A stretch of 4,505 nucleotides of DNA from a virus. Lineage: Duplodnaviria; Heunggongvirae; Uroviricota; Caudoviricetes. The position numbers and the translations under genes are program-made. Each line of letters starts with the position of its first letter. The first letter of the stretch is position 1. The notes under the pieces were generated by a model. It saw only the letters and a program-made list of their open reading frames with translations. It was not told the DNA's origin and made no database searches. Where the stretch lies: IMG/VR virus record IMGVR_UViG_2778261503_000007. One strand, 5' to 3'. Below are positions 678 through 1,031 of the stretch, one piece after another.

Positions 678-1031
678 CTACCCCAGATGAGTAATCCGAA
701 GTTCATCCATACCACAGGTCCTGGCTATTCTGTTGTACTCCTGAACAAGAGCAAATAATTCTGAATTAGCAACCATGAACTCATCGCTAACCCTCTGTAT
801 AGCATCACTATTCAGAATAATAACGTCTCTTCCCGAAAGACGATCAGGAGTACAAAACAAAACTGTCAAACGGCTGAAGGCCTTTGCTCGTGCTGCATTG
901 ACTATATCAATACGCTGCCTAAGGATGAAACACCCCGACGCCTCATCAATATTCACTCTACCCACACCATATGAATGATAAATATTTAATGCTGAAAAAA
1001 CCATTAGACCGTATAACAAACACTCAATCAA
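678..1031 (-). CDS. orphan hypothetical protein in the cargo region (117 codons from TTG at 1031; 108 aa if started at ATG 1002-1004)
   Basis: The only long ORF in the 1-1141 cargo region. Nominal start is TTG with a TAA two codons upstream; the first ATG is codon 10. No convincing SD for either start. AT-rich. No family recognised. Of its 11 Arg codons, 8 are AGA/AGG/CGA/CGG, and 3 of 11 Ile codons are ATA, matching the adjacent tRNA genes. Confidence 0.3.
   Translation of the reverse strand: MIECLLYGLMVFSALNIYHSYGVGRVNIDEASGCFILRQRIDIVNAARAKAFSRLTVLFCTPDRLSGRDVIILNSDAIQRVSDEFMVANSELFALVQEYNRIARTCGMDELRITHLG

What the first reader, a model, noticed from the sequence alone, without database searches (positions are those of the whole stretch)
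678..1031. Orphan cargo ORF uses the rare codons decoded by the three adjacent phage tRNAs
Counted directly from the sequence: 8 of 11 Arg codons in this ORF are AGA (3), AGG (3), CGA (1) or CGG (1), and 3 of 11 Ile codons are ATA. Those are the codons read by tRNA-Arg(UCU), tRNA-Arg(UCG) and the CAU/lysidine-type tRNA-Ile encoded 100-350 bp upstream. The same tRNA-to-cargo pairing has been proposed for stx. This suggests the ORF is a real, translated gene whose expression is boosted by the phage tRNAs, yet its product matches no family I recognise.
Basis: seen in the sequence. Interest (0 to 1): 0.6.

Follow-up and report, generated by a model that had tools for sequence, protein, structure and literature searches.

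The report
Unannotated small prophage late gene
The ORF is a real, conserved but usually unannotated 92-amino-acid gene of lambda-like prophages, and its many rare codons come from its AT-rich composition rather than from a special pairing with the neighbouring phage tRNA genes.

Summary
The codon counts are exact: 8 of 11 Arg codons are AGA/AGG/CGA/CGG and 3 of 11 Ile codons are ATA. That is far above E. coli core genes (14% and 5%). It is also what the ORF's base composition predicts (73% and 33%), what dinucleotide shuffles give (P=0.28), and what other AT-rich genes of a phage carrying the same module show (64% and 30%).

Conserved Arg positions use CGT or CGA. AGA/AGG sit at variable K/R/Q sites. 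Homologues lie next to different tRNAs (Thr-UGU, Lys-UUU) or none, and their codon use does not follow those tRNAs. The specific tRNA-to-cargo pairing is therefore not supported.

The gene itself is real but shorter, GTG 956 to TAG 678, 92 aa:
- Three E. coli lineages at 67-72% DNA identity keep the same start, stop and length, with no indels.
- dN/dS is about 0.28.
- Relatives of 32-41% identity occur in Citrobacter and metagenomic contigs, and a more distant one is Salmonella phage ST64B Sb55.
- The family is PHROG 2873 (function unknown), with no Pfam, NCBIfam or PADLOC match.
- AlphaFold predicts a generic two-helix hairpin (pLDDT 89).

It sits in the Q-dependent late operon, in most contexts between Q and the lysis genes (after them in ST64B). 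Its function is unknown; it is probably a small protein-binding accessory factor.

The parts
678..956 (-). The gene proper: 92 codons, GTG start at 956, TAG stop at 678-680. Member of PHROG 2873; predicted two-helix hairpin.
   Evidence: Same start, stop and length, with no indels, in three E. coli lineages. dN/dS is 0.27-0.29 and differences fall 20:19:38 by codon position. It has the best Shine-Dalgarno pairing of the five candidate starts. Matches phrog_2873 at E 5.5e-57. AlphaFold pLDDT 83-89.
957..1031 (-). Most likely 5' untranslated leader, open by chance in this lineage.
   Evidence: The L002 lineage has a stop codon here, and indels occur only upstream of the GTG. Segregating sites are 8.0 per 100 nt (5 nonsynonymous, 1 synonymous) against 3.6 per 100 nt in the core. 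TTG 1031, TTG 1019 and ATG 1004 have at best very weak Shine-Dalgarno pairing, -0.4 to -2.4 kcal/mol.
775..978 (+). Antisense 'shadow' ORF of 67 aa that shares wobble positions with the real gene. Not a gene.
   Evidence: Its dN/dS is as low as the sense frame (0.27-0.37) only because the third codon positions coincide. This frame has stop codons in the window, L003 and L088, and 4-7 stops in the distant homologues.
1142..1218 (-). Phage tRNA-Arg (anticodon UCU), which reads AGA and AGG.
   Evidence: ARAGORN, Rfam tRNA model at 62 bits, and RefSeq annotation of the identical locus.
1232..1308 (-). Phage tRNA-Arg (anticodon UCG), which reads CGA and CGG.
   Evidence: This tRNA is missing in mEp460 and SCU-176, which carry the same ORF.
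1316..1391 (-). Phage tRNA with CAU anticodon, annotated tRNA-Ile (lysidine type, reads AUA).
   Evidence: ARAGORN calls it Met by its anticodon. RefSeq calls it tRNA-Ile.
1435..1454 (-). Intrinsic terminator between Q and the tRNAs, a tR'-like site that Q-modified RNA polymerase would read through.
   Evidence: Terminator scan: 7-bp stem with 5 GC pairs followed by TTTTATT. Its role as tR' is inferred by analogy with lambda and 933W.
1535..2356 (-). Late antiterminator Q (273 aa).
   Evidence: Pfam Antiterm PF03589, E 8.5e-55.
511..642 (-). Downstream 43-aa gene (DUF3927 / TciB-like small protein), 35 nt after the ORF's stop codon.
   Evidence: RefSeq annotates it as a DUF3927 family protein. 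Matches phrog_1470 at E 7.8e-13.
256..445 (-). STnc100-family prophage sRNA, ending at a strong terminator (286-265). Probable 3' end of the ORF92-DUF3927 accessory block.
   Evidence: Rfam RF02076 at 132 bits against a gathering score of 47. Terminator with a 9-bp stem, 7 of them GC.

Best explanation
Window 678-956 (minus strand) is a genuine 92-aa protein-coding gene of lambdoid prophages, belonging to PHROG 2873 (function unknown). It lies in the late operon: Q, a tR'-like terminator, three tRNA genes, a 185-nt AT-rich spacer, this gene, the DUF3927 small gene, the STnc100 sRNA and a terminator, followed in intact relatives by the lysis cassette.

Likely mechanism (inferred, not shown). 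After induction, Q-modified RNA polymerase reads through the terminator. The tRNAs are cut out of the primary transcript. The downstream mRNA is translated from GTG 956 using a weak Shine-Dalgarno sequence. The product is a soluble helix-loop-helix hairpin with a conserved F-S-R-L-T-V-x-F-x-T-P-D-R turn. It most likely works by binding another protein, possibly as an oligomeric helical bundle, as a non-essential accessory factor made together with the lysis genes.

Its high content of AGA/AGG/CGA/CGG/ATA (10 of 92 codons) is a by-product of AT-rich, horizontally mobile sequence. The phage tRNAs serve the whole phage. This gene may benefit from them like every other AT-rich phage gene, but it is not specifically paired with them.
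For: Coding and strand:
- Three E. coli lineages at 67-72% nucleotide identity have 92-codon ORFs with the same start and stop and no indels. Indels occur only outside the ORF.
- dN/dS is 0.27-0.29 and differences concentrate at the third codon position.
- All 77 ungapped copies of 80 IMG/VR loci of the close type are intact.
- Within that lineage the core has 3.6 segregating sites per 100 nt, against 6.4-11.8 in the flanks.
- Relatives of 91-106 aa at 22-41% identity were found by an exhaustive HMMER scan. Their antisense frames contain 2-9 stop codons each.

Start codon: GTG 956 has the best anti-Shine-Dalgarno pairing, -4.5 kcal/mol. Equivalent starts in homologues give -5.1 to -10.3, except L003 at -2.8.

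Family and fold: phrog_2873 at E 5.5e-57. AlphaFold2 gives pLDDT 83 and then 88.8, with helices at 3-34 and 50-81.

Position: the gene is co-oriented with Q and the lysis genes in SK1144, CFT073, viable phage mEp460, ETEC4075, OkiPb01694, JBOCHL01 and Citrobacter braakii. In ST64B it lies after the lysis cassette.

Codons: as set out in the observation check.
Against: - There is no direct evidence of transcription or translation.
- RefSeq/PGAP leaves the ORF unannotated in every sampled genome of the window type and the L003 type.
- The Shine-Dalgarno sequence is weak in this lineage.
- The upstream 25 codons are open in all 77 close copies, so a 108- or 117-aa product cannot be strictly excluded here.
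- No own promoter was found beyond a 9-of-12 consensus match. Expression in the lysogen is therefore unknown.
- This gene has the highest density of the five codons among the genes of mEp460: 10.9% against a next-highest 10.0%. A real, if non-specific, dependence on the phage tRNAs remains possible.
Confidence: 0.75

Rival explanations
1. One reading: the ORF is cargo whose rare codons are matched to the three adjacent phage tRNAs, so the tRNAs specifically boost its expression, as has been proposed for stx.
For: The counts are correct and lie far above host core usage. The ORF and the tRNAs are probably co-transcribed. All 78 IMG/VR loci that span the interval keep the stretch from the tRNA-Arg gene to the ORF contiguous. 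The ORF has the highest density of these codons in mEp460. Three rare codons cluster at codons 76-79, AGA ATA GCC AGG.
Against: Codon choice equals the compositional expectation and that of other AT-rich phage genes. AGA/AGG occur only at non-conserved sites, while conserved Arg positions use CGT or CGA. Homologues occur with Thr-UGU, with CAU plus Lys-UUU, or with no tRNA, and show no matching codon bias. mEp460 and SCU-176 have lost tRNA-Arg(UCG) but keep the ORF.
Confidence: 0.1
2. The ORF is spurious and PGAP's non-call is correct. The conserved stretch would then be a non-coding leader or RNA element of the late transcript.
For: It is unannotated in all sampled RefSeq genomes of two lineages. 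It has a GTG start, a weak Shine-Dalgarno sequence and atypical composition.
Against: Substitutions show three-base periodicity, there are no indels across 279 nt at 67-72% identity, and dN/dS is about 0.28. Protein-level relatives reach down to about 23-40% identity. The predicted fold is confident. No Rfam family matches this stretch. PGAP itself annotates the L002-type copy (WP_001017777.1) and calls an IS1-split copy a pseudogene.
Confidence: 0.04
3. The true gene is the plus-strand ORF at 775-978.
For: That frame shows dN/dS as low as the sense frame (0.27-0.37), and it is open for 95 aa in L002.
Against: The low dN/dS is an artefact of shared wobble positions. The frame is broken by stops in the window, L003 and L088, and has 4-7 stops in the remote homologues. 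Sequence conservation ends exactly at the minus-strand start and stop codons.
Confidence: 0.02
4. The protein is not a host-directed accessory factor. It would instead be a small coiled-coil assembly or lysis helper, such as a prefoldin-like chaperone or a morphogenesis factor of the late programme.
Against: Those relatives are borderline (E 4e-5 and 1e-4, 22-23% identity). The E. coli members lie in the variable cargo region among accessory genes (DUF3927, TolA-like, iraM, an AraC-type regulator, nanS-p), and their neighbours change from phage to phage. The fold hits are generic.
Confidence: 0.15

Closest known systems
PHROG phrog_2873 (phage protein family of unknown function; related phrog_4827)
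   Same: Full-length match: E 5.5e-57 for the 92-aa form, covering profile positions 17-108 of 108.
   Different: The PHROG profile includes a 16-residue N-terminal extension. Comparative data here indicate that this extension is not translated or not conserved. No function is attached to the family.
Cargo ('moron') genes of the lambdoid late region between Q/pR' and the lysis cassette, such as stx1/stx2 in Stx phages (own knowledge; context in PMC8065619 and PMC7547250)
   Same: Same slot, downstream of Q, the terminator and the Ile/Arg tRNA genes and upstream of the holin. It is more AT-rich than the flanking phage genes (GC 0.44 against 0.49-0.54). Its presence and neighbours vary among related prophages.
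   Different: No homology to any toxin or effector. No convincing own promoter. The family recurs across different prophage backbones, and its most distant relatives lie in structural modules, which is unusual for a pure moron.
Phage tRNA codon compensation (Bailly-Bechet et al. 2007, cited in PMC7946995; ileZ-argN-argO of 933W from own knowledge)
   Same: The three tRNAs decode codons that are rare in the host (14% of Arg codons and 5% of Ile codons in core genes) but common in the phage (42.5% and 17.6% across mEp460).
   Different: The compensation applies to the whole phage, not to this gene. The ORF accounts for about 2% of the demand.
Sb55 of Salmonella phage ST64B (hypothetical protein NP_700428.1)
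   Same: A distant relative of similar size (100 aa), matched at 33% identity by the remote family member P0035. It is late-strand and lies next to the lysis and terminase genes.
   Different: It lies after the lysis cassette rather than before it and has no adjacent tRNAs. Its relationship to the window protein is indirect.

Membership tests
PHROG phrog_2873 | Significant full-length match to the family's profile HMM | tested here: met
   hmmscan gives E 3.8e-69 for the 117-aa form and 5.5e-57 for the 92-aa form, aligned to the end of the profile.
Protein-coding gene (as opposed to a chance ORF) | Purifying selection in frame, conserved ORF boundaries, and no frame-breaking indels among diverged copies | tested here: met
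   dN/dS 0.27-0.29. Three lineages have 279 nt with no gaps. Conservation starts at the GTG and ends at the stop codon. All 77 ungapped copies of 80 loci are intact.
Protein-coding gene (as opposed to a chance ORF) | Evidence of translation (ribosome footprints or peptides) | not testable with these tools
   No expression data are available. No literature search was made for this ORF or its family; a text search of PMC7067206 for sb55, its ST64B relative, found nothing.
tRNA-matched cargo (codon usage tuned to adjacent phage tRNAs) | Use of the cognate codons beyond what base composition gives | tested here: not met
   Expected 0.73 and 0.33, observed 0.73 and 0.27. Shuffles give P=0.28. The ORF equals the AT-rich genes of mEp460, Fisher P=1.0.
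tRNA-matched cargo (codon usage tuned to adjacent phage tRNAs) | Homologues' codon use co-varies with the identity of their adjacent tRNAs | tested here: not met
   Next to Thr-UGU, ACA is 0/2, 0/3 and 1/2 of Thr codons. Next to Lys-UUU, AAA is 0/2 of Lys codons. With no tRNA within the locus, L002 has 3/8 ATA. The numbers are small.
tRNA-matched cargo (codon usage tuned to adjacent phage tRNAs) | Expression depends on the tRNA genes | not testable with these tools
   This needs reporter fusions with and without the tRNA genes.
Moron (Hendrix-type autonomous accessory unit) | Base composition distinct from the flanking phage genes, and presence or absence varying among related phages | tested here: met
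   GC is 0.38-0.44 across 600-1200, against 0.49-0.57 in Q, rusA and ydfU. Neighbours and presence vary among prophages that share the same Q module.
Moron (Hendrix-type autonomous accessory unit) | Own promoter and own terminator | tested here: inconclusive
   Only a 9-of-12 sigma-70 match at 1076-1049 on the minus strand, within the count expected from shuffles. A strong terminator exists at 286-265, but only after DUF3927 and STnc100.
Pfam / NCBIfam / PADLOC families | Any match above the curated cut-off | tested here: not met
   No hit passes a cut-off for the window protein or for 11 family members. A profile search of PDB sequences gave nothing better than E 0.037.

The most novel reading that the evidence does not exclude
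The family may be functionally tied to phage tRNA clusters rather than merely sharing their slot. Members lie 0.1-2.3 kb downstream of tRNA genes of four different sets: Ile2 with Arg-UCG and Arg-UCU; Ile2 with Arg; CAU with Lys-UUU; and Thr-UGU. This holds across Escherichia prophages, a Citrobacter prophage and metagenomic contigs. The helical hairpin resembles, generically, tRNA-binding coiled-coil arms. It could be a tRNA-related late factor, for example one that protects or deploys phage tRNAs against host anticodon nucleases or colicins. The neighbouring genes include TolA-like and TciB-like putative colicin-tolerance proteins.
Probability: 0.05. Interest if true: 0.6.

Novelty: new member of a known kind. 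Interest (0 to 1): 0.25.

Why it matters
The practical value is modest. A conserved small gene of lambdoid prophages, present in about a quarter of complete E. coli genomes (1312 of 5426), goes unannotated in RefSeq in every genome sampled for two of its three lineages. Gene callers that do call it give it the wrong start. It occupies the late-region slot that carries Shiga toxin in Stx phages, so it is a candidate accessory or fitness gene worth a knockout. The analysis also offers two cautions. Rare-codon matches to phage tRNAs must be tested against base composition and against the rest of the phage. And a low dN/dS in an antisense frame can be a wobble-sharing artefact.

Tried and rejected
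- Pfam, NCBIfam and PADLOC scans of the window protein, and Pfam and PADLOC scans of 11 family members, gave nothing above threshold.
- A PDB sequence-profile search gave nothing better than E 0.037.
- tblastn against 50,697 phage records found only mEp460 for the window protein, and ST64B for a remote relative.
- A scan of the one-genome-per-species collection with the remote subgroup found only Citrobacter braakii.
- The search for related loci with the widest alignment failed for lack of a conserved block.
- dN/dS alone could not decide the strand, because the antisense frame was equally low. Stop codons and ORF boundaries settled it.
- A literature search for ileZ/argN/argO found nothing in the held library.
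- I considered and rejected an IraM relationship. The RefSeq 'IraM' annotation under the first BLAST hit belongs to a different, plus-strand gene, whose 3' end is at window 78-230.
- The Rfam hits Trp_leader, Plastid-ycf2 and sR55 are below their gathering scores and were taken as chance.

Full report
**What the window is.** The minus strand carries the late-regulatory end of a Qin-like lambdoid prophage:
- orf129 (3791-4180)
- a DUF968/YdfU protein (2740-3789)
- RusA (2371-2727)
- antiterminator Q (1535-2356)
- three tRNA genes (1316-1391 CAU, 1232-1308 Arg-UCG, 1142-1218 Arg-UCU)
- the ORF in question (678-1031)
- a 43-aa DUF3927 gene (511-642)

Positions 78-4428 are 99.98% identical to a prophage of E. 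coli SK1144, and the part I compared directly (78-1500) is 100% identical in CFT073. Both ends of the window are IS1 ends.

**The observation.** In the 117-codon ORF, 8 of 11 Arg codons are AGA, AGG, CGA or CGG, and 3 of 11 Ile codons are ATA. The tRNAs are of the stated kinds at the stated distance.

Against the host the bias is real. In 34 core CFT073 genes (12,211 codons) these classes make up 14.0% of Arg codons and 5.2% of Ile codons. That gives P=1.7e-5 and 0.017 for the ORF.

Against composition there is no excess:
- The mononucleotide expectation for this strand is 73% rare Arg and 33% ATA. The observed values are 73% and 27%.
- 5000 dinucleotide-preserving shuffles give 9.07 +/- 2.57 such codons against 11 observed, P=0.28.
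- In the viable phage mEp460_ev081, which carries the same Q-tRNA-ORF module, the 15 genes with GC below 0.46 use 64% rare Arg and 30% ATA. This is indistinguishable from the ORF, Fisher P=1.0.
- Within the window the ORF does not differ from Q (P=0.45). It differs from the GC-richer rusA (0.038) and ydfU (0.008), and from the four neighbours pooled (0.022).

**Is the pairing specific?** Four further points argue that it is not.
- Arg positions conserved in all three E. coli lineages (codons 15, 23, 29 and 39 of the 92-aa gene) use CGT, CGC or CGA. All AGA/AGG codons of the gene fall at positions that vary among R, K, Q, L, G, E, S and N. They look like drift between neighbouring AT-rich codons, not selected choices.
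- Homologues sit beside different tRNA sets. These are CAU plus Arg-UCU in mEp460; CAU plus Arg-UCG 2.2 kb away in OkiPb01694; CAU plus Lys-UUU 125 nt upstream in JBOCHL01; and Thr-UGU in the Citrobacter braakii contig, a matching IMG/VR contig and two metagenomic contigs. ETEC4075 and one metagenomic contig have none within the locus.
- Codon use does not follow those tRNAs. ACA is 0/2, 0/3 and 1/2 of Thr codons, and AAA is 0/2 of Lys codons. The tRNA-less ETEC4075 copy still has 3/8 ATA. The numbers are small.
- Across mEp460 the annotated genes contain 334 rare Arg and 112 ATA codons (42.5% and 17.6%). The tRNAs therefore fit the whole phage, and the ORF's 10 codons are equivalent to about 2% of that demand.

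The ORF has the highest density of these five codons of any mEp460 gene, 10.9% against a next-highest 10.0%, because the protein is rich in Arg and Ile. It may well benefit from the tRNAs, but non-specifically.

**Is it a gene, and which one?** RefSeq leaves this stretch unannotated in every sampled genome of the window type, which is present in about 1185 of 5426 complete genomes. The same holds for a second lineage found in 80 genomes. A third lineage is annotated as a 92-aa hypothetical protein, WP_001017777.1.

The three lineages are 67-72% identical in DNA and 59-63% in protein. All encode a 92-codon ORF with the same GTG start ('MNIDE...') and the same stop, with no indel in 279 nt. Indels and loss of similarity begin immediately outside. 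Differences fall 20:19:38, 26:23:42 and 23:18:40 by codon position, and dN/dS is 0.27-0.29.

The plus-strand ORF at 775-978 shows an equally low dN/dS. It shares wobble positions with the sense frame, so this is an artefact. That frame is interrupted by stops in the window, L003 and L088, and by 4-7 stops in the remote homologues.

An exhaustive HMMER scan of 1.84 billion representative proteins found only 22 matches. They include 91-106-aa relatives at 22-41% identity that keep R23, the TPDR turn (in the closer ones) and the E-Y-N motif.

All 77 ungapped copies among 80 IMG/VR loci of the close type are intact.

- There is a stop codon there in the L002 lineage and there are indels in the L003 lineage.
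- Within-lineage polymorphism is 8.0 sites per 100 nt (5 nonsynonymous, 1 synonymous), against 3.6 per 100 nt in the core (6 synonymous, 4 nonsynonymous).
- Shine-Dalgarno pairing is at best very weak for TTG 1031, TTG 1019 and ATG 1004. GTG 956 has the best pairing, -4.5 kcal/mol, and homologues have -5.1 to -10.3 at the equivalent start, except L003 at -2.8.

I therefore place the gene at 678-956.

**Context and likely mechanism.** In every E. coli and Citrobacter context the gene is co-oriented with Q and the lysis genes. It lies between them, among variable accessory genes:
- DUF3927/TciB-like, a TolA-like protein and an iraM paralogue
- an AraC-type regulator and the nanS-p esterase
- a TerB-like protein

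In ST64B a distant relative, Sb55, lies after the lysis cassette and before an HNH endonuclease. The most distant, borderline relatives lie in tail modules.

In the window a terminator (1454-1435) separates Q from the tRNAs. A second strong terminator (286-265) closes the block after DUF3927 and an STnc100-family sRNA at 256-445, which scores 132 bits. Only a 9-of-12 promoter-like match precedes the ORF.

From this I infer the following, none of which is shown. Expression depends mainly on Q antitermination during lytic growth. The tRNAs are processed from the same transcript. Translation starts at GTG 956. The hairpin protein acts by binding a partner protein. The function itself remains unknown.

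**Verdict.** The gene is real and sits in a cargo position, but the tRNA pairing is a compositional coincidence of sharing one slot, and the product is 92 aa and belongs to a catalogued phage family of unknown function. I classify it as a new member of a known kind, of low to moderate interest. The main practical point is that the gene is missing from annotation in every genome I sampled from two of its three lineages.

Noticed in passing
window 1-77 and 4429-4505: Both ends of the window are IS1 ends in the same orientation, 100% identical to the two ends of an IS1A copy in SCU-176. The window is therefore the 4351-bp prophage segment between two direct IS1 copies, a potential composite-transposon-like unit or deletion substrate.
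   Followed up: partly
window 78-230 (+): This is the C-terminal third of a prophage iraM (anti-adaptor) paralogue, truncated by the IS1 at 77/78. It is intact (336 nt) in SK1144 and CFT073 and convergent with the late genes.
   Followed up: partly
window 256-445 (-): An STnc100-family prophage sRNA (Rfam RF02076, 132 bits against a gathering score of 47), related to PasD according to a 2026 bioRxiv study. It begins 65 nt after the DUF3927 stop codon and ends at the strong terminator 286-265, so it may be a 3'-derived sRNA of the ORF92-DUF3927 transcript. RefSeq places a plus-strand pseudogene fragment over it.
   Followed up: partly
window 511-642 (-): A 43-aa DUF3927 gene matches phrog_1470 ('TciB-like, inhibition of cell division or resistance to colicin'). 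In mEp460 and OkiPb01694 a 142-aa TolA-like gene is a near neighbour, and in Citrobacter a TerB-like gene follows the homologue. This hints at a colicin- or envelope-related accessory cluster.
   Followed up: no
window 1435-1534 (-): A tR'-like terminator lies just downstream of Q. An extended -10 promoter-like sequence (TTGATT, 16 nt, TGgTAAATT) was read by eye on the minus strand. This would produce a short pR' RNA analogous to lambda 6S or StxS. Rfam's 'Trp_leader' hit here is below threshold and probably reflects the terminator.
   Followed up: no
L085, L086, L093, L094 (tRNA-Thr UGU); L088 5723-5876 (CAU + Lys UUU); L004 3563-3815: Members of this small family repeatedly lie 0.1-2.3 kb downstream of phage tRNA genes whose identity differs between lineages. 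I attribute this to a shared slot downstream of Q, but did not test it statistically.
   Followed up: partly
L091 (SCU-176) 6717-7704; L090 (CFT073) 2960-3418: Insertion sequences hit this region repeatedly. An IS1 splits the ORF itself in SCU-176, where PGAP then calls the remnant a pseudogene. An IS200C sits between Q and the tRNAs in CFT073. mEp460 and SCU-176 have also lost tRNA-Arg(UCG).
   Followed up: no
window 775-978 (+): An antisense ORF shows dN/dS as low as the real gene because its wobble positions coincide with those of the sense frame. This is a methodological trap when judging overlapping or antisense ORFs.
   Followed up: yes
window 3791-4180 (-): The mechanical 129-aa ORF upstream of ydfU is probably shorter. 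Only its C-terminal 66 residues match phrog_1212, and RefSeq annotates a 92-aa protein (WP_001429486.1) at the corresponding place.
   Followed up: no
L003 2458-3955: There is a 1.5-kb unannotated gap between the homologue and the nanS-p esterase in a non-O157 STEC prophage. This is the place where Stx phages carry stx. I did not examine it.
   Followed up: no
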